Part shown: one piece after another, positions 3,695 to 49,800 of the stretch
How the letters are laid out: each line of letters begins with the position of its first letter
Position numbering within the stretch: the first letter of the stretch is position 1
DNA from: a virus
Virus record (IMG/VR): IMGVR_UViG_3300042288_001089
Span: 4,072 to 68,071 of that record
Direction: 5' to 3' (one strand)
Length of the DNA: 64,000 nt
Made by a program: the position numbers and the translations under genes
Notes under the pieces: generated by a model
Database searches by the model: none
What the model was told of the DNA's origin: nothing
Seen by the model: the letters and a program-made list of their open reading frames with translations, nothing else

Positions 3695-5096
3695 TTCCTG
3701 CGTCGATTTTTTGTATTTGTAGATAAACACTATTAGGCACACCACCATCAAAAGTGATGCCGTCAATAGTTTGAATAAGTCCAGAGTTTGCATCTTGTAC
3801 CCAAAAGTTATCGTAGTAAATATACGAAGTACCTGTAATACTGTTGTACCACTGAAGACCTATGTACGGGTTGGCCGGCGGAGTGTCAGAGACAATCGTC
3901 TTACCCGGCAGACCCTGAGCACCGGCAGGTCCGGTGGCACCGGTGTCACCCTTTATGGCCTTCTTCCCAGACAGAACAACAACACGGTACTGCCCATTGG
4001 ATGGTGCTGATGCGAAACTCACCTGAACAGTGTTGGCAGTCAATACCGCCACCTCTGCCAGAACCTGTATTCCAGAAGAAACCTCGTACACCTGAACAAC
4101 CACGCACACATCATTGAGGTTGTGGGTTACAACAAACGATAACAGCGAACCATTCCCTAGCGTTGTGCAGTAAGATATCTCGCCAGTAAAAGGATCAATC
4201 TCATACTGTGTAAAATCATAGGGCGGTATTGCAGCATTTGTGTGAACACAAGGTATAGTCTGGCCTGAATTAAGAACAAATAGTAAATCTTCATATACAT
4301 CTAAAACTCCCTGCTGACCTATCCCACCAACAAGAAGAAGGCGGAGCATGTCTACCAAATGCGTGAACAGGGTCTGAGCTTTCTCAAACTCAGGGAAGTC
4401 CCCATTGCATTCAATGTACAGGTTGCGAAATGTCTCAAGCTGCTGGACAAGATCACCTATCGGCTTCGGGGTACATGCATCTGCAGTCTCGGTTTTCGAC
4501 AAGGATTCCAGAACCGTAAGCCAAGAGTTCGTCTGGCTTGTGTATGTCAGCGTTGAGGTGAGGCTTATCGTATAAAGAGCATCGTAGTAGTTCTCGTTGA
4601 ATTCCAAGTTCAGTGATACCCCCGAACTGGAAAGATTACCGGTAGGAATACTAGAGCCAACCCAAGCCCTTATGGGAGTGGTGTTGTTGTATCCAGATAC
4701 TTGATAGTTTGTTCCATCACTGTATGAAAGTACAGGAGTGAAGATGTCAAAGTTCTTGACAAGGCTTAATGACACAGGACTGTACTGGAACGCAAACGTT
4801 CTGGTAAACTCTGTGGCAAAATATCCAGATGCGGTGACCGTAAACTTTATGACATAGTTCCCGCACTGTGGTCCACCTATACTGTCCGGGCTTAGATTGA
4901 ATTGAAACGTACCACCCGGTGAAGTTATGTCCGGAGTATCCAAACTACTTGACCTGACATATCCATCTGGCTGAGTAATCGTGAAAACGCCGATCATGCC
5001 AGAAGGTGCTCCGACAGTAGTGTCTGTCAGAATCATCTTTGGCGCACCGGTCAAGTCGAACCGGACGTTAAAAGACACATTACCGATCGATGGCAT
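3687..5096 (-). CDS. Virion structural protein with a short collagen-like segment
   Basis: 469 aa; [16 protein letters not shown] repeat; VTHNLN fibre motif. Confidence 0.6.
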
Positions 5097-22866: not shown

Positions 22867-22991
22867 GCATTCAACCCATCAACAGGTCACATCTTCCATG
22901 CCCTGTGAATTATTTTAAACTTTTTTTGTCCCATGAAACCCTTGTCAGTACTGCATTTCATTAAAATCTGCAACGCTGTTGCAAAAATAAA

Positions 22992-23024
22992 TTTGGATGC
23001 TGTGGAAAAGTCGTCGTATGTTTG
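22992..23024 (+). promoter_or_regulatory. Bacteroidota primary-sigma promoter (early operon)
   Basis: TTTG - 21 nt - TATGTTTG, the full -33/-7 consensus. Confidence 0.8.
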
Positions 23025-23069
23025 TGTGGCAATCGGGTGATACCAACCAAGTCCCTCACCTTGCAATCA

Positions 23070-23081
23070 GTTCTTTCACAT
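23070..23081 (+). promoter_or_regulatory. boxA-like antitermination element
   Basis: GTTCTTTCACAT directly after the first leader hairpin; resembles rrn boxA. Confidence 0.5.
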
Positions 23082-23375
23082 CGTCCCCTGCCCTGTAAGG
23101 CAGCCCGACAAACGGAGCAAAAGCACTCAGCCCGCCCAAAGGCAGGTATGAATAGCGGCATTCCAACCAAGACCCTGCCGCTATCCCCAACACGGCTCTG
23201 ACATAGTCAACCCCACAAGGATGCGAACACGATGTAATATCGTCCCCAACGCATGACCAATTCCTTAGCACTGAGACAGCAAGTAGCGGCCACCATGCAC
23301 CAAGCCACCCGATGAGGTCGATTTATCACCCATCGGTCGGGGGTTCCCCCCCTGAACAGGCCTGCATGGTGGTGA

Positions 23376-23440
23376 CATGGTGTAATGCTACCACGCCGAA
23401 AGGGTGGCGGTCACAAGTCCGCATAAAAGCAGAGTGAATG
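23376..23440 (+). ncRNA. Twister ribozyme (P1 type with P3 stem)
   Basis: U^AA; P2 TGCT/AGCA; P3 CACGCC-GAAA-GGGTG; P4 GCGG/CCGC with loop TCACAAGT; ATAAA linker; GA-GT; both pseudoknots AC:GT; P1 is weak. Confidence 0.82.
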
Positions 23441-23460
23441 AAGTATAAAAACCTATCACC

Positions 23461-23664
23461 ATGACAAACAATTTTGAAGGTACATTCGCATTTGAAACAT
23501 GGCACAATGGCGGACTACAAATGTCTGCCTTTTACGAAGGTATTCATGCCATCAATTTCATCTACATGCATGAGCAAAGCCGCACATTCGCTGACCTGCA
23601 TGTGTACCATAACAAAATCGAGGCTTTAACTGCTTATGAGCAGTTGCAGAGCGAGGTTAACTGA
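23461..23664 (+). CDS. Early hypothetical protein
   Basis: 67 aa between twister and hammerhead. Confidence 0.6.
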   Translation: MTNNFEGTFAFETWHNGGLQMSAFYEGIHAINFIYMHEQSRTFADLHVYHNKIEALTAYEQLQSEVN

Positions 23665-23704
23665 CGAGGACTGATTGCCCGAAACCCCTTCGGGGGTCTT
23701 AACC
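23655..23704 (+). ncRNA. Hammerhead ribozyme, type I
   Basis: Stem I GGTTAA/TTAACC; core CTGACGA; stem II with one mismatch; GAAA; stem III CCCC-TTCG-GGGG; GTC cleavage triplet ending at 23698. Confidence 0.9.
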
Positions 23705-23717
23705 AAATTTTATCGCC

Positions 23718-24029
23718 ATGATGACTATCAACATTGGCCTGAACAATAACCCGTTCAAGTACGAAGAACTCAGTGAGGCTATTGGTTATTCCTTCGGAGG
23801 CCGCTGTCAGTTTAGGTTAGGGCAGTGGGGAGAGACACCCGAGCCGACACTTGTCGCTCTCCTGCCCCGGCCGCTGACCATCGACGAATTAACGCTTCTG
23901 CTCTGCCTGACAAAACAGGAGTGCATCGCTGTTTGGGAAGATGGGGAGGGATATTTGGATTGGCATCCGAATTTTCCTGAGACCTGTCAATTCGATGAGC
24001 GGTTTTTCATACATCACACGGCTGAATGA
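23718..24029 (+). CDS. Early hypothetical protein
   Basis: 103 aa; TINIGL...EPTLV...QECIAVW, reminiscent of phage SAM-lyase-like small proteins (unverified). Confidence 0.55.
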   Translation: MMTINIGLNNNPFKYEELSEAIGYSFGGRCQFRLGQWGETPEPTLVALLPRPLTIDELTLLLCLTKQECIAVWEDGEGYLDWHPNFPETCQFDERFFIHHTAE

Positions 24030-24036
24030 CCCTCCC

Positions 24037-24074
24037 CCACCCGCCGCCGAGCGTGGCCTTTGATGGCAAGGTGG
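24037..24074 (+). ncRNA. T-loop three-way-junction element, copy 1
   Basis: CCACC/GGTGG enclosing CGC-CGA-GCG, TG, GCC-TTTGAT-GGC. Confidence 0.5.
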
Positions 24075-24091
24075 AACTAAATTTTATCACC

Positions 24092-24358
24092 ATGAAACGT
24101 ATCAGCAAACAGGCCAAGGCCATCGCAGATGCCCACATTGAAGCCCGCAAGTCAGGAAACTTTAACGATCCAGTCTGCACCACCAAAGAGGAAGTCATCG
24201 CTGCCCTTCGAGACGGCAAAACGATCGAGGCAGTACTTGATCAAATAGAGATCAAGTTCACCTCCATCCATGCCATCATCCTGTCAAGGGTTCTCTTTCA
24301 TCAGAGCAAAAACTACAGGGCGGGAGTTTACAAAGGTTTCCGCCTCCTGCTCGACTGA
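24092..24358 (+). CDS. Early hypothetical protein
   Basis: ATG in TATCACCATG context. Confidence 0.6.
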   Translation: MKRISKQAKAIADAHIEARKSGNFNDPVCTTKEEVIAALRDGKTIEAVLDQIEIKFTSIHAIILSRVLFHQSKNYRAGVYKGFRLLLD

Positions 24359-24364
24359 TCTTTC

Positions 24365-24403
24365 ACCTGTCGCTTTAGGCGTGGCATTCGATTGCGAACA
24401 GGT
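24365..24403 (+). ncRNA. T-loop three-way-junction element, copy 2
   Basis: ACCTGT/ACAGGT enclosing CGC-TTTAG-GCG, TG, GCA-TTCGAT-TGC. Confidence 0.55.
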
Positions 24404-24418
24404 CCTAAATTTAACACT

Positions 24419-24589
24419 ATGAATCAAGACAGGAAAAATCTCATCATCGTTCTCGCCCTGCTCATTGCAGGACTTATATTTGCAGGACATGCAGACATGG
24501 AGCAATACCCGCAGCATGCCTGCTACGACTCCACGCACAAGACCTGTGACGGAAAGTGTAAATGCGATGGATTTGAATGTACGAAGTGA
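24419..24589 (+). CDS. Small membrane protein with Cys-rich tail
   Basis: N-terminal hydrophobic helix; CDGKCKCDGFEC. Confidence 0.6.
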   Translation: MNQDRKNLIIVLALLIAGLIFAGHADMEQYPQHACYDSTHKTCDGKCKCDGFECTK

Positions 24590-24622
24590 TGGTCGCAGGG
24601 TGGTTCGACTCCACCCGCTTCG
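24582..24622 (+). ncRNA. Mini-tRNA element 1
   Basis: CGAAGT-GATGGTCGCA-GGGTGG-TTCGACT-CCACCC-GCTTCG. Confidence 0.75.
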
Positions 24623-24658
24623 CTAAACTGCGCTCGGCAGTACCCGAGCATTTACACC

Positions 24659-25099
24659 ATGAAGTACGCAATAATTAAGCACGGGACAGCAGAATTTGAT
24701 GTTGTCACCGAAGATGGCGGGGTTGCATCCATCTACCTAAATGGGTATGGATACACTACAATGTATTTTCAGTCAAGAATCGAAAACGGGAACTTTGATG
24801 AAGTAACGGAAGGAAAGGCATACTGCAAGGATTGGTCGGGAAATGAAGAAGACGATGTCATGATTGCTGATGCCTTGAAATGGCTCGACCCGTTCGAGGA
24901 CAAATGGGAGCATGATGACAGCATTTGGCCTCAGATGAATTGGACTGCCCACATCAAGTGGCATGGCGAGAATTACGGCCTCGCCATAATCGACAAAGGC
25001 AATTCGGTCAGGCAGACACCTGTTGTCAAGATAGGGGGCAATATCCTTTTTGACAATACCCTTACTGAACGAGAAAGGCAAATTCTCTTATCCCTGTGA
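24659..25099 (+). CDS. Early hypothetical protein
   Basis: 146 aa. Confidence 0.65.
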   Translation: MKYAIIKHGTAEFDVVTEDGGVASIYLNGYGYTTMYFQSRIENGNFDEVTEGKAYCKDWSGNEEDDVMIADALKWLDPFEDKWEHDDSIWPQMNWTAHIKWHGENYGLAIIDKGNSVRQTPVVKIGGNILFDNTLTERERQILLSL

Positions 25100-25140
25100 G
25101 AGCGATGGTCGCAGGACGGGTTCGACTCCCGTCCGCTCTC
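25098..25140 (+). ncRNA. Mini-tRNA element 2
   Basis: GAGAGC-GATGGTCGCA-GGACGGG-TTCGACT-CCCGTCC-GCTCTC. Confidence 0.78.
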
Positions 25141-25160
25141 CTAATCAAAAACAAATCACC

Positions 25161-25646
25161 ATGAGCAACTTTAATTTTGAAATAATAAAAGAAACCGAAA
25201 AGGCAATTTTTGCAAAAGTTCCTTATTTTGAAAAAACATCTGATAACGTTAAAAAACACAAGCAATTATTTTATGAATGTTGGATACCTAAAGCAGTTAT
25301 TGATAAAGGAATTGCAAAAGAATTTGTTATCGGAAAAAGAAATGAAATAAGATTATCCAACAAATATCAAAGATTGTGCGAAATGCCGGATTGTTGGAAA
25401 ACACTTGGAGAATATGCACCTGTAAAAACAGCACAAAAAGTTCAGGTTATTGATTATGATAAGTTGTCAGAATTGATTAAGTTTTATGAAAATAAATATG
25501 GTGCAAACTTGCGGAGATTGGTCATAGATGGCGAAGGATCTAATGGATATGTAAGTGATGAAGATGAAAAAATAATAAATCAATTAGAATTTCCTGCATT
25601 AACTAAGGCGCATATCCCCAAAAAACATATAACTATTTATTTGTAA
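25161..25646 (+). CDS. Early hypothetical protein (AT-rich)
   Basis: IIKETEKAI...WIPK phage motif; ATG after AAAACAAATCACC. Confidence 0.65.
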   Translation: MSNFNFEIIKETEKAIFAKVPYFEKTSDNVKKHKQLFYECWIPKAVIDKGIAKEFVIGKRNEIRLSNKYQRLCEMPDCWKTLGEYAPVKTAQKVQVIDYDKLSELIKFYENKYGANLRRLVIDGEGSNGYVSDEDEKIINQLEFPALTKAHIPKKHITIYL

Positions 25647-25681
25647 GGGCAAAGAAACAGCCTGTTTTTTAATCCTCCCCC

Positions 25682-25723
25682 GAACTGTGATGGTCTAATG
25701 TGGGTTCGACTCCCACGCAGTTC
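25682..25723 (+). ncRNA. Mini-tRNA element 3
   Basis: GAACTGT-GATGGTCTAAT-GTGGG-TTCGACT-CCCAC-GCAGTTC. Confidence 0.78.
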
Positions 25724-25742
25724 CTCATCAAAACAAATCAAA

Positions 25743-25970
25743 ATGAGCAACACGCACTATGTACTTATCAACGATGACAACGAGGTGGTCGCTGTCATAA
25801 AAAAGCAAAACTTCAAAGGTAGACTTGTGACAGCCATCGAAGATGAAACAGAGCAGGATGTATTGGGGTTGCAATTGGATCAGATTGAATACAATAGTTA
25901 CATGATTAAAGCAAGGATTTCGGGCGGTCAGACATACACCGCCACGCTTAGACAAACTTGGGAATATTAA
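25743..25970 (+). CDS. Early hypothetical protein
   Basis: 75 aa from the ATG after element 3. Confidence 0.6.
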   Translation: MSNTHYVLINDDNEVVAVIKKQNFKGRLVTAIEDETEQDVLGLQLDQIEYNSYMIKARISGGQTYTATLRQTWEY

Positions 25971-25981
25971 AACAAATCACC

Positions 25982-26266
25982 ATGGTAGAATCAAATTACA
26001 TCCATGCCGACAGAGTCCTGTCAAGCATCTACGCTGATGCTGTTGGCAAGTTTATGTCCAAGGCAGAGAATCAACTATGCTTCGATGAAATTTGCGAATA
26101 TGTTCATCGTAAACTACAGCATAGAAAACAAGATGGGTATACTCACTCTTTAGCCATCGTCAAAGAAGTTTGTAAAAAGGTAGGAGAAAACTTTGACGGG
26201 TGCGTGGAGTACTATGCGCCAAATGCTAAATGCTATCGAGATATTTATTTTGCAATCTATAATTGA
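25982..26266 (+). CDS. Early hypothetical protein
   Basis: ATG after AAAACAAATCACC. Confidence 0.6.
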   Translation: MVESNYIHADRVLSSIYADAVGKFMSKAENQLCFDEICEYVHRKLQHRKQDGYTHSLAIVKEVCKKVGENFDGCVEYYAPNAKCYRDIYFAIYN

Positions 26267-26273
26267 ACATCCT

Positions 26274-26360
26274 ATGCAGATTTATATTTTTTTGTGTGCG
26301 GGGATGATAATTGTAGTCATACTTATGATACTCGGAATCATTTATGACGACAGGCAATAA
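26274..26360 (+). CDS. Small membrane peptide (28 aa)
   Basis: Read manually: MQIYIFLCAGMIIVVILMILGIIYDDRQ. Confidence 0.4.
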   Translation: MQIYIFLCAGMIIVVILMILGIIYDDRQ

Positions 26361-26367
26361 TACCCCC

Positions 26368-26411
26368 GAACTGCTATGGTACTCGATCGGGTTCGATTCC
26401 CGATGCAGTTC
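26368..26411 (+). ncRNA. Mini-tRNA element 4
   Basis: GAACTGC-TATGGTACTCG-ATCGGG-TTCGATT-CCCGAT-GCAGTTC. Confidence 0.78.
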
Positions 26412-26430
26412 CTCATCAAAACAACAAACC

Positions 26431-26532
26431 ATGACAGCGACAATTTTCTTCTCAGTGGTGGCGGGAATAGTCTTCTCAGCCTACCTCCTCAGCAAAGGCC
26501 TCTCCACCCCCGAACAAATTAAAAAGTGGTGA
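26431..26532 (+). CDS. Small membrane peptide
   Basis: 33 aa, single hydrophobic helix. Confidence 0.45.
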   Translation: MTATIFFSVVAGIVFSAYLLSKGLSTPEQIKKW

Positions 26533-26678
26533 CATGTGGAAGGACGTCAAACAAATCAGCCTGAGCCACCCAAACGAGGTGGTTCGGGCATACGCCAAAC
26601 ACCTCCTCGCTAAAATGAACAGCGGCAAAAGGAGAGAAGCAAGAAAGGAAATTTTATTCTTCATCAAAAACCATAAAC

Positions 26679-27011
26679 ATGAATGTACATCAATTTCTTA
26701 AGCAAATTGAACAGGACGGGAAAGCAGTTTACTCCATTTCTGAAGGGGTCTTGAATCCCGAAGATGGGTTTATATTCTGCATACCCGACACGTTCGAGAA
26801 ATTCGACGGGTCATATGATTCCCTGCAGAATTACGTTATGAAGCACATCAAGGAACTCGCATCGCCTCAGAGGTACATCCTCGCCTCGAGGATAAACATC
26901 GAGGTGGGAATCAAGATGTCAGAGTCTTCAGCAAGGGAACTCGCATCCATCAACGGAGGAGATTGGGTATACAACTGTCAAGACAAAAAGTATGAACTCA
27001 CTAAAAGTTAA
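26679..27011 (+). CDS. Hypothetical protein
   Basis: 110 aa. Confidence 0.6.
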   Translation: MNVHQFLKQIEQDGKAVYSISEGVLNPEDGFIFCIPDTFEKFDGSYDSLQNYVMKHIKELASPQRYILASRINIEVGIKMSESSARELASINGGDWVYNCQDKKYELTKS

Positions 27012-27015
27012 AACT

Positions 27016-27255
27016 ATGCAAACGTTTATCACGGCCATCGTATTGGTTGTTGTGTCCTTTATCTTTGTCCTTGACAGGTACAAAAAGAACTGGGCATACA
27101 ACCAAATCGAGGAAGACTATCAGAAAACAAAATCCGCCATCAATAAAGTGGACGAGCAGACTGCCACCCGCCTTAAAGATTATTTTTTCGAGAGGTGGAC
27201 AGGTAGAATAAACAGGTGGGTTCTCCTCCAATATATGGCGAATCTTAATAGTTGA
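27016..27255 (+). CDS. Hypothetical membrane-anchored protein
   Basis: N-terminal hydrophobic helix. Confidence 0.55.
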   Translation: MQTFITAIVLVVVSFIFVLDRYKKNWAYNQIEEDYQKTKSAINKVDEQTATRLKDYFFERWTGRINRWVLLQYMANLNS

Positions 27256-27265
27256 CATGGTGATA

Positions 27266-27302
27266 CCCCCCGAACCATTCTTGGTATAGGGGGCTTTTTA
27301 TT
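27266..27302 (+). terminator. Putative intrinsic terminator
   Basis: CCCCC...GGGGG stem followed by CTTTTTATT. Confidence 0.45.
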
Positions 27303-27393
27303 AAAACAAATCAGATGGAAAATATAACATTCAATCAATGGATGGCGCATATCTACAGAGAGTTGGGCCATCCCGAAGAAAAGATAAAAAAAT

Positions 27394-40546: not shown

Positions 40547-40834
40547 ATGGAACAGACTAAGCAACAGACTGCAGTAGAATGGTTTTTTGATACATTGGTT
40601 GAAAAGGGGTATATTAAAAAATTGCCCATAGCCGAATATCATGAAGCCAAAGCAATGGAGAATAAACACAGAGACGCATTCCGGGAATTCATAGAATGGA
40701 TAGACCCGGAGTTCGCCGGCATCAAAGCCAAGGCGGAAGAGATACTAAGCAGGGTGGACTCTACTTATACAGCCCACCCTTCTTCACCTTCCCAGTCTTT
40801 ATCCCAATCTTCGTCTGCTTGTCAAAGCCAGTAA
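40547..40834 (+). CDS. Small protein, QQTAV family
   Basis: MEQTKQQTAVEWF...AKAME; overlaps the 3' end of the giant gene. Confidence 0.55.
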   Translation: MEQTKQQTAVEWFFDTLVEKGYIKKLPIAEYHEAKAMENKHRDAFREFIEWIDPEFAGIKAKAEEILSRVDSTYTAHPSSPSQSLSQSSSACQSQ

Positions 40835-43800
40835 CCCGTATTGCACTCCTTTCGTTTATCTGCTCGTCAAGTATTTTGGGATCTGCTCCGGTAAGTATGA
40901 AGTCCTGATACAGCTTGTTGTACCTGCTGATTATGGCCTCCTTCTTTGACTCGGCTTCTTCCTGAGCGGCCTTTATTTCTTCCGGAGTGTACTTCTTATT
41001 GTACTTGATGGCATTGTACTCTCTTGATATTCCATCCATGTCGCTGTACATCCGGCTGAGTGCAAACCCCCAAGCCTCATGCAGGTCAACCTCGTATGGT
41101 CTTGCTCCTATTATAGCCCAAGCTTCAGCGGACTTGTTCTCGTTCTTTATGAGCCTTTCAATCATTGAATAGGTCGATGGCTTAAGTCTGGACCAAGTGT
41201 ATGCTATCGATTTGTCAAACGCATCTGCTGGGCCGTCAGTCTCTAGAACTATATTGTTACCAGTCTTAAGGTTTCTATTCTGCATGAGAGACCACATAGC
41301 ATCAAAGGTCATCTCTGGGCCCAAGAACGGGCTGAATAGTTCCGCAAGTGCTGCAGGTACACCCGGGTCCATGGTCCTTCCGAAGATCCCCTCTCTGCCC
41401 TCAGTGAGTGCGTTCATTGAACTTGGGATAAGACCGTATGGATCTAGGCTTGACAGGTTCAGCACCGTGTACTTGTGTGGGGCGGTCTTTGATGGGATGA
41501 TCAGCAGGTCGCCAGTTCTCATGAATGGTGGCAGTGCCTCTCTAATCGCATTCTTTCTCCTCTCCTCGTCATCATCTCCCATGATGGCACCAAGTATTCC
41601 AGCAGCGGCAAATCCAAATAGTTTTGCAACTCCGATCGTAACTGCACTTCTAAATCCTAAGTATGCGGCTATGCCTGCCATCCTTCTCATACCCACTGCC
41701 CTCATCTCCGGGTCTTTTATGTCTTCATTGGCGATCTTTATTGTGTTCGCCAGTACCCTGAGAGATTCAGCTTGGAACGATATGAAATCACCAAAGATGG
41801 GCGCATTCTTACTCACGAACTTTGCTCCCTCCCATACACGGTCGTATGTTGGCCATGTGTTCTTCACCCTTTCTGATGATTCAAGATCCACTTTTGCCTG
41901 CTGTTCTTCTGTCAAGGAAGAGTATGTACCCCCGAACCGAGCCTTACTCACCAGCTCCCTCTCGTTTATATATCCATATACCTTCCAGAAATCATCACCA
42001 ATCCTGTATGCCTTATTAAAGGCAGGGAATGGATTAATCCTCTTTGTAACTCTTTTCTTCCACATTCCCTCAGAGCTGAGTGCCATGTCAAGTGCTATGT
42101 CATGAACATCCCCACTTGAGAGCATGGAAGCTATCTCCCTTGCACCGACAGACTGTCCCACCAGATTAAGTCTTATAACTTTCTCTGTTATCTCATCTAT
42201 ATCGGACTTGGAGTACTGACCTTTTACATACGCCCAAGAGTCTTTTGCCGCACCAAAACTATTCCCAGTATACACAATACCATTCATAACGGCGAATCCA
42301 AGGTTGGACTCAATGTTCTTCAGCTGTGTTGCCAGTGACAGAACCGTCTTGCCATACCTTACAGCACCAACCATTCTCATCCAAGCATTGGTTAGGTTGT
42401 TGTATGTTGGTTCTACCGCCTGAAGTGATTCGTATATTTCAGGGGTGGTATAGAGTCCCCCGAGCGGGCTCATTGACTCAGTACCGGTAGACGCTATTTG
42501 AACGCTATGGCTTGCGGGTCTCTCAGGATCATTCTTTTCAAAGAACAGGGTACCCATTCCCTTATCCCTTAGGTTGCTGAGGAACTGGCTGGAAGACTTG
42601 AGAGCAGCCTGCTTTGTGACGGTCATCATAAACACAATGCCCGGGTCTGTGTACTCCCCCATCAGTTTCCTGATAGGCTCAGGAATATCCTTGCGCTCTT
42701 TTAAGATGCCGGGGTTTCTCTTGTCAACAGATCCCGCATTGAAGTATGGGTTCCTGTTTTTATTCAGGATGTCCTCCACATCTCTTTGGGCTTTTACTAT
42801 GGCGTCCCTTTCTATCTGCTCAAGAGTAAGCATCCCGGCCTTGTCTGTCGCCATCTGCTTGATGTACTGGTCAGCCAGATACTTGATGGCCTCATTCATC
42901 ACCTCCTTGGAGGGCTTGTAGAAGGAGTCATTAAACATCCTGTAAGACCTATTGACATAGGCTCCTATGTTATTCTGCAGTACGATGGACTGCTCGGGGG
43001 TGACATATCCAGAACCTACCAGATCTTTTGTAAGATTATCTATCTGACCTCTCATCTTGTACACAAACGGTACAATCTCTGCAGGCAGTGCAGCTATGGA
43101 TGGGGGTATGATTGACGGCGATTCTTCTGGGAAATTGGGCTGTGAGGCCAATACAACCTCATTGGGCATGATCTGTGAAACTCCCCTAGCATCCTTCAGT
43201 GCCTTAGAGAAGGTGTCCCAATCAGAAAAATTAATCGATTTAGCTACGATCTTAAGCTGCTCTACCGTCCTTGCCGCCCTAGCTATCTCTATATTCTTTG
43301 CTCCACCGGCAAAGTCCTTCATCGCCAGCACCCAGTCAGGCAGCCCTTTGGCAGGGTCAAACCATTTCTTCTTGAAGTTTTCCGCCCAACTTGCCCTGTC
43401 GGATATCTTATTCTTTTCCAGATACTCCTGTATCCTGTCCATTGGAACCTCAAGGCCGGTAAAGGCCGCATCGATAGGCTTTCCAAACTGGCGGTTCCTG
43501 TATATGTTCTGGAGCTTCGCCCTCTCTACGAGGTTGTTCCTTTGCAGTACGGTCATGGCAGGGAACTGATTCCTTAGCCATCCTTCAGGGTCATCTATCA
43601 GATCCTTTATATCCTGCGGAGACATCTCCGGCATGACAGATGCTATGCCTGTGATCAACTCAAGCTTGTCAGCACCTTCGGATATCTTCCTCATCACATA
43701 CGCAGCCAGCTTGAACTGCTTTGTCTGCTCTGGTCTAGGGCCGGCCGATGCCTGTATCCTGTTATCAGTAGTACTGAATGCGCCAGTATTTTCTGTGGCT

Positions 43801-46800
43801 GATTTGATTTGGTTGGGGTTAAAAGCCACATATACAGACAATCCTTTTGATACTTTTTCTATAACGCCATCTGACCCAATTATAGATGCAACATCAGACA
43901 TCATCTTGCCATAGCTTGTATCTTGCTTATACGATCTTTTGATATTCTGAAGTACTTCTTTATCAGAACCATCAACGCCAAACATATCGTCCACATATTT
44001 CTTAATCAAATCCGACTTAGATAGACCTTCTGATTTTGTGTAAAAGGGAAGATAACTATCGTAAAACCAGTTATTATCACCATTTGAAAACAACTGATAT
44101 GCCTGCTCTTTTGTAATATTATTCGACCTGACAGTTATTACAAGCGGGTTCAACAAGTTAGTAAATACGTTCATTGGATTCCCGTATTCAGAAGCAGCCT
44201 TCTTGTTATCTGTCATGTAAAATCCGGGGCCCTGCTGTGCAAGCCTTGCCTCCCAAGATATCCTGTTGTATTCAAACTGGTCAAATTTTGATTTCGTTCC
44301 ATGATACACCACCATCGGCTCTCCATTCTCATCCACCACCTTACTAGCATTTTCGGGATCATTCTCCCAGTCCCCAAACCAGTTCTTGAATTCAGGTGTT
44401 CTTACTTGCGCCCATTGCCTTTCATTCAGATTGGTAGGCTTGCCATTTGGCGCCTTCATGTAGGTCCCGTTCGCCTTGGCGTCAGATATTATCTTGTCGA
44501 GGTTTCTTCCTCCGGCGGAAGCTTGAATAGATACATCATTCGGAGTCTTTTCGGTAGAGAATTCAGAGGTAGTCGATCCAACTTTTTTTACAAAGTTGTC
44601 AACCACTTCTTTTGAATTTGAAGCAGCAAATCCTTTGAAATTACCGCTATCCCAATACTGAACTACATGCTTAAAATTATCAAGAAGTACATTTTTGTAA
44701 TAATCAATATTAGCCTGATTCTCTTTCATACCAACAAGGACATCATCGGACTTCATAGCCTGCTGCTCCTTAGTGTAGTATATATCTTTGTATGCAGATT
44801 TCTTTTTTTCGTTCTTGTTGTATACTTCTGCGTCTTGGCTAAACTTCTCCTCCGTAACAAAGAGGCCGTTATTCTTTAGGTAATTATCAGCTATCTCTTT
44901 TACAAAATGATCACGCCTATCTGTAATAAACTGAAACACCATTGACTCATGAACAATGTCAGACTTTGATTTTGGTTTGTGTTTTTTATATGTTTTGCCT
45001 TCGTAATCAAAACCTTCATAGAACGCCTCTTCTACAAACTTACTTCCCTCGACAGGCTTTGCCTCATGCACCTCCCTCATGTCTGGGTTTGGATCAAGAT
45101 TTATAGTCTTGATAGATCCGCCGCTAGATTCCGTTATTGCTTTTACAAACCCACCCTCTGAACCGCCAATATCATAAACCAAAGGTTTAGTGGATTCTAT
45201 AAACCTGTTTGGTACGTCATATATTTTTCTTGGCGCATATGACTTATTGGTTGAGTAATAGGCATTATAAACAACCGTCTCCAAGAACAAAGCTTTCTGA
45301 GCCTTCTCTGAATACATTGGAGAGTGAGTATTGTATGCATCAAATTCTCCCTGTGTTGAGAAGGTATTTGATACCATGGCATGGCCAAAAATATCATGCA
45401 CCGCCCTGAACAGATCATTAAACAATACATCATCTCCGTTTATTACTATCCCAGTACTTCTGAATGGAGCGTAATTTTCTGCAGATTCATTTTCGTTTGC
45501 TTCACCAGTTGAAGATCTGCTTCTAAGATAATACAAATGCTTGTTCTCCAAAACATCCTTTCTCATTTCGGATGAGTTTACCCCATAAGGTTCTCCATCC
45601 TTCAGCCATGGTTCAATCTTATATCCAGCATCCACCAATTCCTGATACTGCTTAAGAGTTTCATTCAAGAATGCTTCATAAGACTTTGCCATTTCTGGAT
45701 TCTTCCTATCGTCTTTTGCATTTTTATGATAGTCAGATATTTCCCTAAATAGATTAGCATCAACTTTTGTATACGCCGGGTTAGTCTTTATTTGGTTTGC
45801 CTCTTTGTATTTGTTTTTAATATTTTCCAAGTCAGAATTAACTGCTCTTGGCGGATCTGAAAACATTGACACCAAAGCATTACCAACCTTAACCTGAGTC
45901 TCCCTGAACGTTGGGATAGATGTAGCAATATGAAGATCAAAATTGCCCATGTATTTATCAAACACATTCTTAAAAGATTGCTGGTTGCTATCAAATCCTA
46001 TTACGGGTTTCCATTCTTTTATTGGCTTGTACTTGTCAGAGATCCCTTTTACAACATCACTAAAAAATCCTATAGTCTTGCCGGATTCATTTACATTAAT
46101 ACCTCTTCCTCCTGCTGAGGCCTGCCTGTTCGACTTCAGCCCTTCGAACTTGGGCATCACATTAACAACGTTACCGACTCCCTTGCCGTAAACTTCTACC
46201 GGAAGTTTCTCGGTAGTCTGTGCACGGAGAACCTTCCTTCCACCGATGTACCACTCAGCAACAGTTACAGGGTATCCCTTCTTGGCAGCCACCTGAGTGA
46301 TGAATCCTACCTGCTTGTTGGCATCAAAGGCCACACGGTCACCGTACACCTTCCTGAATTCAACCTCTGCTTCGTCATACAGATTCAGTGGGTCTCTGTT
46401 GAATGGGTACACCTTCTCCATCGGAACCTTTATGGCGTATCCAAACTCTGAAGGTATGCCGGACTCTATTGTTCCGGGTTCAGTATACATCATTGACAAG
46501 CCAACTCCGGGATTCTCCCCCCGACCCGTCACTAGATTGGAGCCAAACCTGTCAGGATCCAGCTTGGAGAATTTACTTCCGCTATAATGGAAGAATACAT
46601 AGTTCCCTTGCCCATCCTCAGTCATCATCTTGTCAAGCTTGGCGGCTTGGACAAGGTTGCGGCCTCCTGCAGAGGCTTGTATAGCACCAGCAGTCGAAGA
46701 TACAGGAGTATATTCAAATGATCCTTCGGCTCCTACCGGCTGACCCTTTACATACATACTTCCTGCAAGCATTTGTGCTGCAGTCTTTGTGTAAGCACCG

Positions 46801-49800
46801 CCCTTAGGCCCAGTCATTTCGACAGGCTTAAACATTTTGTTTATCTCATATGCGCCATCAAGAATGAATGCATTTTTACCGGGGAACTTGGCGTTGAATA
46901 GTGGGTGCTTAACGCCACCTTCTTGGAATTTAGATGCGTACTCTTTTGCCGCATCATCCAGAGATTGCCACTTCTTTTTATTATCTGGGTCTTTTGCCAG
47001 TTCGTTAGATGCGTCAACGATATTCTGTGGCAACCCCTCAACTGATTCAAATCCAGTGACGGCCATTCCCCACATCCCTTCGTTCATATATAGGTCAACC
47101 AACGATGGCTCACCTATTTCACGCATAACTTTCTCTGCATTGATACCAAGCCTATCCATCAATTGCTTGGCGATAAACTTATTCGGCTTCTTAGAAACAT
47201 AACCAATATCTCCTTCAACTCCCTTTACAGAAGCTTTAGGAGTGATACCACCAAGTAGGTTAGATACGAAAGCCCCACGAGCCTTAAAGCTTGCAGGCTT
47301 ATTATCATCCCCTACCTTGTAAGCCATCTCAGAGATCATCTCATCGATGACTTCTGGATTAGACAGGTCTGCCTTTTTATACTTGTTTACAAATTCATTG
47401 TATGCCTTTTCTCCAAATGCATCTTTAAGCAGGACAAGATCCTTACCAAAGAACTCTGACTTAAAATCAGATGACCTTAAAATACTCTTAGGAAGCATTG
47501 AGATACCATCCATTACATACCTGAGTGCATAAGAGTTGCTGAGAATAGATGTAGGTGCTTGGGTTGCTACCATAGTAACACCCTGTTCTGTGCCGAACAC
47601 CTCTGCATTATACTTAACCCATCCTGCTACCTTAGCCAACTGAGTAGTGGCGAATCCTATGTTACTGTCGACATTGTCCTTGATAGACAAGTAAGCAGGT
47701 CCGCCATACATAAATATTTTCTTACCAGACGGAAGGGTTAGTTCACCAACCCTAGTCGGATCAGAATTAATAACAACAGCTTTCCCACCGTAACTATTAT
47801 AAATATCTTCAAGACTTCTTCTTGGGAGATCTTCTACCTCCCTAGACTTATAAACATCAATGCCACGAGATACACTAGCCTGAACAACAATTTCACCACC
47901 GCCAACAACTTCTGGAGATGTAAGATTGTTTACATAATCTTTAACGTTTCCCCTACCTACAATCTCAGCAACATCAGCACCCTTGGTCATCGCCTTGGAT
48001 ATCTCTGTGGCCAGACGCTTAAAGGCGGCGAGATCACTTGTATCTTTAAGCAAAGGTCCTATACCAAACAGCTTGGCTATCTTGTTGATCATCTCAAACA
48101 GGGACTGCTTGAACGATGTGGGTATGTTGCTCAGGTCTACCACCCCGGCAGATATCCTAGCTATTGTATCCACACCAGCCTCATCGTCTTTCTCCTCCTG
48201 AGTCTCATACTGCGGCTGGCCGTCTGCCCATTCCTTGGCTTTAGCAACCCCTTCATTCATTCCTGCAGCCTCTTTCATACCACGCATGAACATATCATAT
48301 AACTTCCTATCGGTGTTCCTTATGATGTTCATTACAGGGTGAACGGCTTCATGCCATACAACCACACCAGCCTCAAGAGCATCTCCCAGCCTTGACTTGT
48401 TTATTACCACTACGCCATTACCGGAATCAAATATGCCTTGCTCAGATTTCATGCCCTGATCAGCAGCCTCCTGATCGTTCTCTACTACAATAAATCGGAT
48501 ACCAAGACTACGAAGTGCCTTTGATGCAACCTCTACAGTACTGGCAACTCTTTGAGCTATCGACCTCTTGGTGACGTCTGTCATTCCAAGTTCCTGACGG
48601 AGCTCTTCTTCTATGACTGATGGAGTAGGGGTGGCTGGTTGAGCTGCCTTCTCTGACTCAACCTGTGAAGGGAGTTTTGCCCTACCCTCGCTGACAGCTT
48701 GATCAATTATTTTCTGAGTATAGGCCTGAGCTTCTTCGTAGGTATTAAACGGAACCTCATTGGCCGGCGCAATATCCTCCCTAACCATGAAGACAACATC
48801 CGGCCTATTCTTTAATGGGGAATCAGGTGCATCCCAACCTATTGGTGCTTGCTTCTCATTGAATGGAACTCTGGCAACAACCTTATACCCGGACTTCTTA
48901 TAGATATCCGTAAGGTATATGTCATAGTTGTCCATGAACAGACCACCCATATCCTTCATCTTGGATATCATGGCCTGTGCAGCACCTTTGGTTTTCACAG
49001 TAGCGTCCTTGACAAGGGATACTATCTCTCCGTTTGGCTTTAAGAGCGATAGGATCTTATTGCCGGCAGCTCTTAAAAACTTACCACCTTGACTGGCGAT
49101 GCTATCATACTTCTCCTGAGTATAAGGAGTGACGGACACGCCTGCAGATCCAAGGCTTGCCATAGCAGACTCCATCTGGGATGCAAAGTTTGTTGCGTCA
49201 GATGTTACCTCTATCTGTTCGGAAGGAAGGGTAGCATCTGTAGAAGCAGCCTGACCTTTGCTTTCATTTTCTAACGCCGCCAGTTCTGCATCATATTTGG
49301 CATTAATGCTTTCTTCCGTATTCTCTATCAGATTCCCATTCGAATCTCTAATTTCTACATTTCTATCAAAGTTGAATGGGCTGTTGAAATTGTCTAACTC
49401 TTCCTTTCTTCTTCTTTCTATGTCAGATTTTCTGGCATCTATTTCCTCTTGGCTGAGGATATTGCGATTGCCAACATTTGTTTCCGTGGCCGTGGCTTGC
49501 CCTTGTATCCCCTCTCCTTGCCCGACTTCTGGTTGTCCAGTTTCAATTCGTGCAGGTTGTACGACACCGCCTTCTGAAAGGCTTTCTTGCTGTTGTTGCT
49601 TGCTGACTTGAGTGGCATATAGTGGGTTTTTATATGAACCATCTGGCAAACCTTCAGAGAATCCTACCCTTTCTTTTGTTTGCTGTAGTTCGTTATTTAA
49701 TGTTTCATCGTTTACTGCTCTTACAAAGTCTGCCGACTTTATTACCTCATCAGCCTTACCAGACTGCTTGAGTTCTTGATATTCAGATACAGACATTACC

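What the first reader, a model, noticed from the sequence alone, without database searches (positions are those of the whole stretch)
23376..26431. Nearly every gene boundary in the early operon carries a cleavage-type RNA element, of four different classes
Seen in order: twister, ORF, hammerhead, ORF, T-loop junction, ORF, T-loop junction, ORF, mini-tRNA, ORF, mini-tRNA, ORF, mini-tRNA, three ORFs, mini-tRNA, ORF. Most end 13-20 nt before an ATG in a shared A/C-rich context such as AAAACAAATCACCATG. Known: twister and hammerhead self-cleave. Inference: the elements are interchangeable processing signals that cut the early transcript into monocistronic mRNAs, analogous to RNase III sites in T7 or mitochondrial tRNA punctuation. 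The two unknown classes are therefore candidate RNase P/Z substrates or new ribozymes.
Basis: partly seen in the sequence, partly recalled or inferred. Interest (0 to 1): 0.9.

Follow-up and report, generated by a model that had tools for sequence, protein, structure and literature searches.

The report
Ribozymes and tRNA mimics punctuate operon
In this lake-water phage, eight of ten gene boundaries in one operon carry a small structured RNA, either a self-cleaving ribozyme or a stripped-down tRNA look-alike, which probably cut the long transcript into single-gene messages.

Summary
- a twister-P1 ribozyme (23379-23440)
- a type I hammerhead (23655-23704)
- two copies of a 41-nt three-way junction (24035-24076, 24364-24404)
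- four 42-45-nt "mini-tRNAs" (24582-24623, 25098-25141, 25682-25724, 26368-26412)

My own covariance models find only these copies in the 64 kb.

Both unknown classes are real, widespread phage RNA families with strong covariation and no Rfam match. Both are anticodon-less tRNA mimics. Each has a 7-bp acceptor-like stem, a tiny D-like hairpin, a T-like arm, 12 nt from T-loop to stem end, and a discriminator-like C. The junction class also has a covarying G19:C56-like tertiary pair.

In other phages all three non-twister classes sit just after a stop codon and about 15-30 nt before an ATG. They co-occur on one strand in the same small-ORF operons.

My best reading is mixed operon punctuation. 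The ribozymes cut themselves, and the tRNA mimics recruit host RNase Z and/or RNase P.

No RNA-end data exist, so cleavage is inferred. The "new ribozyme" alternative is not supported.

The parts
22992..23024 (+). Candidate promoter of the operon (TTTG .. TAtgTTTG), at the start of a 690-nt non-coding stretch
   Evidence: Pattern search. There are 3 matches in the window against 1.5 expected, so the count is not significant; only the position is suggestive. The consensus used is recalled (Bacteroidota type).
23289..23374 (+). Very stable three-way structure directly upstream of the twister. Its role is unknown.
   Evidence: Fold of 23285-23380 gives -46.1 kcal/mol, z -3.68; 0 of 200 shuffles fold as well.
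23379..23440 (+). Twister ribozyme, type P1. The expected cut is between U23383 and A23384; that position is recalled from the family, not tested.
   Evidence: cmscan gives 47.9 bits, E 9.4e-9, below the gathering score of 67.2. A syntenic twister in L085 scores 47.5 bits.
23461..23664 (+). ORF1, 67 aa. Its stop codon UGA is part of the hammerhead core CUGA.
   Evidence: No Pfam or PHROG match.
23655..23704 (+). Type I hammerhead ribozyme. The cut after C23698 would leave a 19-nt leader before ORF2.
   Evidence: Descriptor finds 1 in the window and 1 site in 200 shuffles. Model R3 gives 58 bits, E 1.6e-13. Rfam gives only 13.4 bits.
23718..24029 (+). ORF2, 103 aa
   Evidence: tblastn finds homologues in L116, L135, L180, L216 and L262.
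24035..24076 (+). tRNA mimic, class B (three-way junction), copy 1
   Evidence: Model R2 gives 33.2 bits, E 4.6e-8; this copy is not in the seed.
24092..24358 (+). ORF3, 88 aa
   Evidence: Homologues in L262 and L172.
24364..24404 (+). tRNA mimic, class B (three-way junction), copy 2
   Evidence: Model R2 gives 62.5 bits; this copy is a seed member.
24419..24589 (+). ORF4, 56 aa, with a hydrophobic N-terminus. Its stop codon lies inside the acceptor 5' strand of mini-tRNA 1.
24582..24623 (+). tRNA mimic, class A (mini-tRNA), copy 1
   Evidence: Model R1 gives 23.8 bits, E 1e-5.
24632..24649 (+). Extra hairpin in the 35-nt spacer before ORF5
   Evidence: -10.4 kcal/mol, z -3.0; 3 of 200 shuffles fold as well.
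24659..25099 (+). ORF5, 146 aa. Its stop codon overlaps the first bases of mini-tRNA 2.
25098..25141 (+). tRNA mimic, class A, copy 2
   Evidence: Model R1 gives 43 bits, E 1e-12.
25161..25646 (+). ORF6, 161 aa
   Evidence: Weak PHROG 4156 match, E 4.7e-4.
25682..25724 (+). tRNA mimic, class A, copy 3
   Evidence: Model R1 gives 38.6 bits, E 4.2e-11.
25743..26360 (+). ORF7 (25743-25970), ORF8 (25982-26266) and ORF9 (26273-26360), joined by 11-nt and 6-nt gaps with no element
26368..26412 (+). tRNA mimic, class A, copy 4
   Evidence: Model R1 gives 57.3 bits; this copy is a seed member. A near-identical element lies in L085.
26431..26532 (+). ORF10, 33 aa, hydrophobic

Best explanation
The operon is one long transcript whose gene boundaries are marked by small RNA modules. 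Each module ends about 15-20 nt before the next start codon. I propose that the modules cut the transcript into single-gene mRNAs with short, unstructured, A/C-rich leaders.

Two modules are self-cleaving.
- The twister cuts at its own 5' edge and removes the roughly 350-nt leader.
- The type I hammerhead cuts at its 3' edge. It stays on the upstream mRNA, whose stop codon lies inside the ribozyme core.

The other six modules are anticodon-less tRNA mimics of two families. Both families present the parts of a tRNA that the end-processing enzymes read:
- a 7-bp acceptor-like stem stacked on a T-like arm, with 12-13 nt from the T-loop to the end of the stem
- a D-loop/T-loop elbow
- an unpaired C in the discriminator position, usually followed by U/A-A and never by CCA in this window

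I propose that host RNase Z cuts after that C. This would create the downstream mRNA's 5' end, just as the hammerhead does. RNase P may additionally cut at the 5' edge and release the mimic.

Shown here: the structures, their family-wide covariation, their placement relative to ORFs, and their co-occurrence. Inferred: every cleavage event, the enzymes involved, and the benefit. The benefit could be defined leaders for Shine-Dalgarno-independent translation, or structured 3' ends that stabilise the upstream mRNAs.
For: **1. Reality and uniqueness of the elements.** Models R1, R2 and R3 find 4, 2 and 1 strong matches in the 64 kb, all on the + strand between 23655 and 26412. No other match scores better than E 0.098, 1.7 and 3 respectively.

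**2. Class A structure (mini-tRNA).**
- There are 75 matches, 68 of them distinct, in the window plus 99 loci.
- 94.6% of cells pair, against 54.2% in shuffles.
- 14 of 15 pairs show compensatory change.
- The covariation score is 0.882, against 0.169 shuffled and at most 0.133 slid.
- The 2-bp D-like hairpin N-A[UGG]U-N' covaries: AU 17, CG 15, UA 13, GC 12, and 1 unpaired.

**3. Class B structure (three-way junction).**
- There are 34 matches, 24 of them distinct.
- 96.2% of cells pair, against 70.7% in shuffles.
- 10 of 13 pairs show compensatory change, reached by 1 of 500 shuffles.
- A tertiary pair joins the last base of the P2 loop to the third base of the UUYGAU loop. It is GC in 17 and AU in 4, with 0 unpaired, like tRNA G19:C56.
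- Flanking U..A is present in 21 of 21, and G.R in 20 of 21.
- The T-like loop is 12 nt from the end of P1 in 20 of 21.
- The first base after P1 is C in about 80%.

**4. Placement relative to ORFs.** Share of elements with an ORF start 5-40 nt downstream:

| Class | Observed | Random positions in the same loci |
|---|---|---|
| A | 35 of 79 | 7.7% |
| B | 17 of 31 | 10.3% |
| Hammerhead (within 40 nt) | 87 of 113 | not computed |

- For the hammerhead, an upstream stop codon lies at the element's edge in 92 of 113.
- For class B, the upstream stop codon lies 1-25 nt before P1 in 26 of 26.

**5. Co-occurrence with hammerheads.**
- In 100 loci fetched through a hammerhead pattern (912 kb), R1 finds 6 matches and R2 finds 3.
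- In 100 essentially random viral loci (858 kb), R1 finds 0 full-length matches and R2 finds 0.
- My hammerhead descriptor finds 0 in 117 such control loci.
- All 6 loci with a class A element have it on the hammerhead's strand.
- Mixed operons are laid out:
  - L116: B, HH, HH, A
  - L262: B, HH, HH, HH, B
  - L190: HH, A, B, B
  - L265: B, HH
  - L263: A, B

**6. Synteny.** The relative L085 has twister, ORF, hammerhead, and later a class A element, in the same order. Its hammerhead stems II and III carry compensatory changes.

**7. Precedent.** Plant mitochondrial t-elements are tRNA-like structures found through the GGTTCRANYCC motif. Their ends coincide with mRNA 5' and 3' ends, and these are attributed to RNase Z and RNase P (PMC1920247, passages read). 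Tandem hammerheads cleave prophage polycistronic RNAs in vitro (PMC3088659, passages read).

**8. No phage-encoded enzyme.** No RNA-processing enzyme was recognised among the phage proteins scanned: 8 and 10. This fits the use of host enzymes.
Against: - No transcript end has been observed. No RNA run holds the stretch.
- Twister and hammerhead both score below Rfam's gathering scores. The hammerhead's stem II has an A.C mismatch, so activity is not assured.
- Folding energies of the single sequences are ordinary, with z from -0.2 to -2.9.
- In 11 of 35 class A elements with a nearby upstream ORF, the stop codon ends inside the model match. About 5 of these overlap by 7 nt or more, including copy 1 of this window. 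An RNase P cut there would create non-stop mRNAs.
- Class A is not generally tied to hammerheads. There is 1 hammerhead in 109 class-A-pattern loci, 0.97 Mb.
- Only 44% of class A elements lie just before an ORF.
- The co-occurrence counts come from related, non-independent loci.
- Class B has a 6-nt T-like loop and a G.R mismatch in its T-like stem. Whether RNase P or RNase Z accepts it is unknown.
- The host is unknown, so it is also unknown whether the host has RNase Z.
- R3's seed loci were fetched with 14 bases taken from the window's own hammerhead, and were picked by a pairing descriptor. Part of its score and of the covariation is therefore by construction.
- The alignments used for the covariation counts were fitted to the models.
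Confidence: 0.55

Rival explanations
1. The tRNA mimics are not cleavage signals but translation elements. A tRNA-shaped module held at a fixed distance upstream of the AUG docks on the ribosome, or keeps the leader open. This would drive initiation on internal cistrons that have no Shine-Dalgarno sequence.
For: - Spacing to the ATG is tight: 14-19 nt for 5 of 6 mimics in the window.
- The leaders have no purine-rich Shine-Dalgarno sequence. They share ..AAAACAAAUCACC AUG.
- Type I hammerheads a few nt upstream of ORFs are reported to serve translation in RNA viruses (PMC13725137, passages read).
Against: - The hammerhead in the equivalent position is by nature a cleavage element.
- Across families the spacing is broad, with a mode of 20-29 nt and a tail.
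- No ribosome-binding role is known for acceptor/T-arm mimics in bacteria (my knowledge).
- This reading is compatible with the main one rather than exclusive of it.
Confidence: 0.12
2. The released or embedded mimics are early-expressed decoys or sponges for host factors that act on the acceptor end or elbow of tRNAs. Candidates are defence toxins that modify tRNA 3' ends, CCA-adding enzyme, and T-loop modification enzymes. Their position between genes would then be incidental packaging.
For: - They sit among small genes of unknown function, as anti-defence genes often do. 0 of 9 have a Pfam match.
- They keep precisely the acceptor/T/elbow half of a tRNA.
- Class A is common in phages without nearby hammerheads.
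- The same phage also carries a tRNA-Leu and four tRNA-like elements, at 35099-36439.
Against: - A decoy role does not explain the strong placement immediately before ORF starts.
- It does not explain the sharing of that slot with ribozymes.
- It does not explain the lack of an encoded CCA.
- No defence target is identified.
Confidence: 0.1
3. One or both unknown classes, class B above all, are new self-cleaving ribozymes, as the first reader suggested as an alternative.
For: - Class B has about 18 near-invariant bases in 41 nt.
- It is found beside hammerheads, which is the context in which pistol, hatchet and twister-sister were discovered (that account is my recollection; PMC5737381, passages read, says only that bacterial self-cleaving ribozymes lie near certain gene classes and that this was used to find more).
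- It has no Rfam match at E up to 10.
Against: - The conserved bases are accounted for by tRNA mimicry: a T-like loop, a G19:C56-like covarying pair, the 12-nt rule and a discriminator-like C.
- There is no conserved unpaired junction that would form a catalytic pocket beyond these.
Confidence: 0.07
4. The elements are mainly DNA-level features: recombination linkers between gene cassettes, remnants of tRNA-derived attachment sites next to the integrase, or selfish mobile repeats.
For: - Contigs of related phages in four runs of one study match only the element cores, or start and stop exactly at element edges.
- An integrase gene lies 1.4 kb downstream.
- The elements are conserved while the flanking ORFs differ.
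Against: - Compensatory base changes in every helix, and in a tertiary pair, show selection on RNA structure.
- The copies have different stem sequences.
- All copies are on the coding strand.
- Mosaic breakpoints are expected at any conserved module.
Confidence: 0.05

Closest known systems
Tandem hammerhead and twister ribozymes in prophage and phage polycistronic RNAs (Perreault et al. 2011, PMC3088659; review PMC6765202)
   Same: - Type I hammerheads and twisters sit between small genes of phage regions, several per transcript.
- Cleavage of about 2-kb polycistronic transcripts was shown in vitro (passage read).
- Processing of polycistronic mRNAs has been suggested as their role (passage read).
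   Different: - Here the same slots in one operon are also filled by two non-ribozyme tRNA-mimic families.
- The review says the purpose of such ribozymes is still undefined.
t-elements of plant mitochondria, and the tRNA punctuation model of mitochondrial transcripts (Forner et al. 2007, PMC1920247)
   Same: - Non-canonical tRNA-like structures carrying the T-arm motif lie at mRNA ends.
- RNase Z is proposed to make the 5' ends of downstream mRNAs and RNase P the 3' ends (passages read).
- Real tRNAs serve the same role.
   Different: - The setting is an organelle, not a phage.
- t-elements are degenerate cloverleaves. Here there are two compact, sequence-defined families of 41-45 nt with a minimal D-like hairpin and no anticodon arm.
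- Here they are mixed with ribozymes.
RNase III sites between the early genes of phage T7 (recalled, no call)
   Same: The phage's early polycistronic mRNA is cut at structured intercistronic signals by a host enzyme, leaving structured 3' ends.
   Different: T7 uses long imperfect hairpins for a double-strand-specific nuclease. Here there is no such hairpin; the signals are tRNA mimics and ribozymes.
tRNA-like domain of tmRNA, and mascRNA of MALAT1
   Same: - Each has an acceptor stem plus T arm with a D-loop analogue and no anticodon arm.
- mascRNA is cut out by RNase P and RNase Z, which defines the end of a long RNA (recalled).
- There are weak partial cmscan matches: tmRNA T arm 14.4 bits, mascRNA 16.7 bits.
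   Different: Both scores are far below the gathering scores of 47 and 42.5. There is no tag reading frame and there are no pseudoknots. The organisms and context differ.
[quoted passage not shown]
   Same: The ribozyme fills a short intergenic region, with the cut site a few nt upstream of the next start codon (passage read).
   Different: Those are eukaryotic RNA viruses, and no tRNA mimics are involved.

Membership tests
Twister ribozyme, type P1 (Rfam RF03160) | Covariance-model score at or above the curated gathering score (67.2 bits) | tested here: not met
   47.9 bits, E 9.4e-9, full-length match to model positions 1-68.
Twister ribozyme, type P1 (Rfam RF03160) | Conserved core (UAA cleavage region, CAAG..CCG, UAAA, GAG) and conservation in relatives | tested here: met
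   The alignment shows the core with lineage-specific changes (ACC for GCC, GAGUG for GAGGG). L085 has the same variant at the same junction, 47.5 bits.
Twister ribozyme, type P1 (Rfam RF03160) | Self-cleavage | not testable with these tools
   Needs in vitro transcription.
Hammerhead ribozyme, type I | Core CUGANGA .. GAAA .. UH with three helices, stem I open | tested here: met
   Read. The descriptor finds 1 site in the window and 1 in total in 200 shuffles. Stem II has one A.C mismatch.
Hammerhead ribozyme, type I | Match to a curated Rfam hammerhead model at its gathering score | tested here: not met
   Only RAGATH-1-hammerhead matches, at 13.4 bits against 56.3, E 4.2. Relatives also score low: L116 gets 30.5 bits against 34.
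Hammerhead ribozyme, type I | Match to a model of the phage subfamily, and covariation of its helices | tested here: met
   R3 gives 58 bits, E 1.6e-13. In the seed, 11 of 16 pairs show compensatory change. This is partly by construction, as noted in the Against line.
Transfer RNA | Cloverleaf with an anticodon arm; detection by ARAGORN or Rfam RF00005 | tested here: not met
   ARAGORN and Rfam call only tRNA-Leu at 35197-35283. The mimics have 9-13 nt (class A) or one 3-bp hairpin (class B) where the D, anticodon and variable arms would be.
tRNA-like substrates of RNase P / RNase Z (t-element kind) | Acceptor stem stacked on a T arm of about 12 bp, with a T-loop | tested here: met
   Class A has 7 + 5-6 bp and loop UUCGANU. 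Class B has 7 bp + U-A, G.R and 3 bp, with 12 nt from loop to stem end in 20 of 21, but a 6-nt loop.
tRNA-like substrates of RNase P / RNase Z (t-element kind) | D-loop/T-loop elbow | tested here: met
   Class A has an invariant UGG loop closed by a covarying pair. Class B has a covarying G:C / A:U pair between the two loops, 21 of 21 paired.
tRNA-like substrates of RNase P / RNase Z (t-element kind) | Transcript ends at the edges of the element; cleavage by the enzymes | not testable with these tools
   No RNA holder is listed. The runs laid were contigs and probably DNA.
tmRNA / mascRNA | Family covariance model at its gathering score | tested here: not met
   tmRNA scores 14.4 bits against 47, T arm only. 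mascRNA-menRNA scores 16.7 bits against 42.5.
Other known self-cleaving classes (pistol, hatchet, twister-sister, HDV-like, hairpin) for class B | Any Rfam match at E up to 10 | tested here: not met
   cmscan of 24020-24430 returns only two CRISPR-repeat chance matches.

The most novel reading that the evidence does not exclude
Phages of Shine-Dalgarno-poor hosts run a general mixed punctuation system. Self-cleaving ribozymes and two previously undescribed families of anticodon-less tRNA mimics are functionally equivalent cassettes. Each sets an mRNA 5' end about 18-20 nt before a start codon. The mimics do this by hijacking host RNase Z and/or RNase P. If true, this would give bacterial and phage hammerhead and twister ribozymes a concrete biological job, and would add two new RNA classes to the known substrates of the tRNA-processing enzymes.
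Probability: 0.4. Interest if true: 0.85.

Novelty: new variant of a known kind. Interest (0 to 1): 0.78.

Why it matters
What hammerhead and twister ribozymes do in bacteria and phages is still an open question. The 2019 review read here says that additional work is needed to define their purpose.

This operon contains a natural comparison. In the same operon, and in several other phages, the slot held by a ribozyme is elsewhere held by a tRNA mimic, and the obvious partners of a tRNA mimic are RNase Z and RNase P. That makes "operon punctuation" directly testable with a handful of constructs.

The operon also yields two compact (41-45 nt), well-covarying RNA families that have no Rfam match. 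I found no paper on them in ten full-text searches. One family shows how far a tRNA can be reduced while keeping an elbow pair.

Such modules could also serve as tools for cutting synthetic operons in hosts where ribozymes or Csy4-type sites are not wanted.

Tried and rejected
- **RNA evidence.** No RNA holder is listed for 22900-26700. The four runs labelled RNA-Seq come from one study. They are contigs and probably DNA, and they show no starts or ends. Nothing can be said about expression.
- **blastn of the region against GenBank phages** found no match.
- **The search for related loci** with the integrase-like protein and with ORF5 found no relatives in viral contigs.
- **Twister pattern scan.** Of 119 pattern matches, only 1 (L085) is followed by the rest of a twister. 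The others are chance, and I reused them as random control loci.
- **Class B pattern in 185,579 prokaryote genomes.** Of 88 stretches, only 3 have at least 6 of 7 P1 pairs. One of those (L451) looks like chance. L471, from a Rikenellaceae genome, is a perfect copy before an ATG. The class is therefore essentially viral.
- **Weinberg et al. 2015 (PMC4509812)** is not held. Its supplement lists further ribozyme-associated motifs that I could not see. A motif like class A or B could be described there without having reached Rfam.
- **Literature searches** found no paper on phage mini-tRNAs or this junction.
- **attP remnants** were considered and rejected, because the 5' strand and the D-like hairpin covary.
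- **Pfam/PHROGs on nine small proteins (ORF1-8 and the 110-aa ORF at 26679-27011)** gave no useful match.

Full report
**Setting**

The window is 64 kb of a 68,071-bp single-contig virus record. The near-identical DNA is held by lake-water metagenome runs.

It is a tailed phage. The following genes were recognised:
- portal and large terminase
- primase/helicase
- ERF and YqaJ recombination proteins
- ThyX
- dNMP kinase
- a tyrosine integrase

A 690-nt non-coding stretch begins at about 22770. It holds one promoter-like match at 22992-23024. The count of such matches is not significant, so only the position is suggestive. A run of small + strand ORFs follows. Nine of these small ORFs (ORF1-8 and the ORF at 26679-27011) have no Pfam family, and only one has a weak PHROG match. 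"Early operon" is therefore plausible from position, but it is not shown.

**Checking the observation**

*Twister.*
- It is a full-length match to Rfam twister-P1 at 23379-23440, with 47.9 bits and E 9.4e-9. It is below the curated threshold of 67.2.

*Hammerhead.*
- It is missed by Rfam's type I model and gets only 13.4 bits from RAGATH-1-hammerhead.
- The sequence nevertheless shows the whole core and three helices.
- A descriptor with those rules finds one site in the window and one in total in 200 dinucleotide shuffles.
- A model built from 18 phage hammerheads of the same subfamily scores it at 58 bits, E 1.6e-13, with nothing else below E 3.
- Part of that score is by construction, because the seed loci were fetched with 14 bases of the window's own stem I and core.
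- The stop codon of ORF1 is the UGA inside the core CUGA.
- The cut after C23698 would leave a 19-nt leader.

*The two "T-loop junctions" and four "mini-tRNAs".*
- Models R2 and R1 pick out these copies alone. Each model's seed holds one window copy. The other copies score E 4.6e-8 (R2) and E 1e-12, 4e-11 and 1e-5 (R1).

*Boundaries.*
- Eight of the ten boundaries between 23376 and 26431 are occupied.
- The two empty ones are gaps of 11 and 6 nt.

**What the unknown classes are**

I scanned IMG/VR with short patterns taken from the window.

*Class A (mini-tRNA).*
- Among 102 matches with a fully paired T stem, 50 also had at least 6 of 7 acceptor pairs at the expected place. By my own estimate, well under one would be expected by chance.
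- R1 then aligned 75 matches, 68 of them distinct.
- 94.6% of cells pair, against 54% in shuffles.
- 14 of 15 pairs show compensatory changes.
- The covariation score is 0.88, against 0.17 shuffled and at most 0.13 with slid partners.
- The "linker" is not unstructured. It is a 2-bp hairpin N-A[UGG]U-N' whose closing pair covaries almost evenly: AU 17, CG 15, UA 13, GC 12.
- The layout is therefore acceptor stem, minimal D arm with the GG of a D loop, 3-6 nt of spacer, T arm with UUCGANU, acceptor 3' strand, and a C in 52 of 68.

*Class B (three-way junction).*
- The pattern gave 47 stretches. About half show the full architecture and the rest are chance hits in GC-rich coding DNA.
- R2 aligned 34 matches, 24 of them distinct.
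- 96.2% of cells pair, against 70.7% in shuffles.
- 10 of 13 pairs are compensatory.
- Three further features make it a tRNA mimic as well:
  - The last base of the P2 loop and the third base of the UUYGAU loop form G:C in 17 and A:U in 4, and are never unpaired. This is the behaviour of the G19:C56 elbow pair.
  - The bases flanking the 3-bp P3 are an invariant U..A plus G.R. This extends P3 to five layers, so the T-like loop is 12 nt from the end of P1 in 20 of 21, as in a 5+7 tRNA minihelix.
  - The first base after P1 is C in about 80%, followed by U/A and A, the same context as in class A.

*Database status.*
- Neither class matches any Rfam family at E up to 10.
- Ten full-text searches found no description of either class.
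- Weinberg et al. 2015 and its supplement could not be read. A similar motif could be listed there.

**Where the elements sit**

Across all fetched loci, the elements lie just after a stop codon and shortly before an ATG.

| Class | ORF start close downstream | Random positions in the same loci | Upstream stop codon |
|---|---|---|---|
| Hammerhead | 87 of 113 within 40 nt, mostly 10-19 nt | not computed | at the element's edge in 92 of 113 |
| Class A | 35 of 79 at 5-40 nt | 7.7% | ends inside the model match in 11 of 35 |
| Class B | 17 of 31 at 5-40 nt | 10.3% | 1-25 nt before P1 in 26 of 26 |

For class A, about five of the 11 overlaps are clear, including copy 1 in the window.

**Do the classes stand in for each other?**

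*Co-occurrence.*
- In 100 loci fetched through the hammerhead pattern (912 kb), R1 finds 6 matches and R2 finds 3.
- In 100 loci that are in effect random viral DNA (858 kb), R1 finds no full-length match and R2 finds none.
- The hammerhead descriptor finds none in 117 such loci.
- All six class A elements lie on the hammerhead's strand.

*Mixed operons.* lay these out:
- L116: B, HH, HH, A
- L262: B, HH, HH, HH, B
- L190: HH, A, B, B
- L265: B, HH
- L263: A, B

Whole-record searches of five records were run. In the four that hold my elements, the strong matches lie within a few kb of each other.

*Synteny and variation.*
- The 68.8-kb relative behind L085 keeps twister, ORF, hammerhead, and later a class A element almost identical to copy 4. 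The ORFs between them show no evident similarity by eye.
- Homologues of ORF2 are preceded by a hammerhead in L135, by a different pseudoknot-like sequence in L180, and by a small hydrophobic ORF in L116 and L262.
- A homologue of ORF3 follows another ORF directly.

*Limits.*
- The association is lineage-limited. Class A is common in phages with no hammerhead nearby, with 1 in 0.97 Mb.
- The loci are related to each other, so the counts are not independent events.

**Mechanism**

The hammerhead fixes the logic of the slot. It cuts at its own 3' edge, stays on the upstream mRNA together with that gene's stop codon, and frees a short leader.

The mimics offer the acceptor/T stack and the elbow, which are what RNase Z and RNase P measure. 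They also offer a discriminator-like C that is not followed by CCA. I therefore think the selected cut is the RNase Z cut after that C. It reproduces the hammerhead's outcome, and it tolerates stop codons inside the acceptor 5' strand. RNase P may also release the mimic.

Two points fit this reading:
- The phage's own tRNA-Leu, and the tRNA of L085, also lack an encoded CCA. This is the setting in which RNase Z works (recalled).
- Plant mitochondrial t-elements are the closest tested analogue.

All of this is inference. No ends were seen, the host is unknown, and both ribozymes are sub-threshold variants.

**A second punctuated stretch**

A second stretch of the same phage, 35099-36439, alternates ORFs with a tRNA-Leu and four tRNA-like elements. 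Three of these are tRNA-Leu copies whose middle is replaced or expanded. tRNA-type punctuation is therefore not confined to the first operon.

**Verdict**

It is sharpened to two ribozymes plus two families of anticodon-less tRNA mimics.
- The finding is new as a variant of known kinds (ribozyme arrays, tRNA punctuation), and it is directly testable.

Noticed in passing
window 35099-36439 (+): This is a second punctuated stretch. It begins with an odd tRNA-like element (35099-35192) and tRNA-Leu(aag) (35197-35283). Three further copies of the tRNA-Leu acceptor/D/T frame follow at 35541-35668, 35851-35989 and 36287-36439. In these the anticodon/variable region is replaced or expanded to very roughly 65-110 nt. 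An ORF lies between successive elements (starts 35306, 35687, 36021), and a terminator-like hairpin follows the last element. ARAGORN and Rfam call only the one tRNA.
   Followed up: partly
window 23289-23374 (+): A very stable three-way structure (-46.1 kcal/mol, z -3.68) lies directly upstream of the twister, inside the long leader. No similar sequence was obvious upstream of the twister in L085.
   Followed up: partly
window 25671-25681 and 26360-26367; L085, L190, L237: A C-run box ((U)ACCCCC) directly precedes several class A and class B elements in this phage lineage. In L085 it also stands before a real tRNA-Trp, and at one place without any element.
   Followed up: no
window 23441-27314, 20 nt before each ATG: Start codons are preceded by a shared A/C-rich leader (..AAAACAAAUCACC AUG) with no purine-rich Shine-Dalgarno sequence. 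This holds also at boundaries without an element (25971-25981).
   Followed up: partly
window 24586-24623, 25699, 26390-26405: Contigs of related phages in four wastewater runs of one study match only the element cores, or begin exactly at an element edge with unlike sequence beyond. The runs are labelled RNA-Seq but are probably DNA. One contig that is 99% identical over ORF5 has a different sequence with a T-loop-like hairpin in place of mini-tRNA 1. This suggests mosaic exchange at the modules.
   Followed up: partly
L180, about 100-60 nt upstream of the ORF2 homologue (match at 4887): In the slot before an ORF2 homologue there is a short hairpin whose loop can pair with the sequence just downstream (GGAG..GAGCG..CUCC..CGCUC). 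This could be a further punctuation class.
   Followed up: no
L190 720-777 (+): A type III hammerhead (Rfam 42 bits against 48.5) lies in the same operon as a type I hammerhead, one class A element and two class B elements.
   Followed up: no
L471 6846-6886 (+), Rikenellaceae genome: This is the only clear class B copy found in 185,579 prokaryote genomes. It has a perfect 7-bp P1 and is followed by a short leader and an ATG. It is presumably a prophage in a Bacteroidota host.
   Followed up: partly
L266 177-830, L237, L238, L263: Class B elements occur in arrays of two or three, with successive copies roughly 270 to 1,300 nt apart (the three in L266 are about 270 and 340 nt apart).
   Followed up: no
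window 40761-52085 (-): A single 3,774-aa ORF lies among the structural genes.
   Followed up: no
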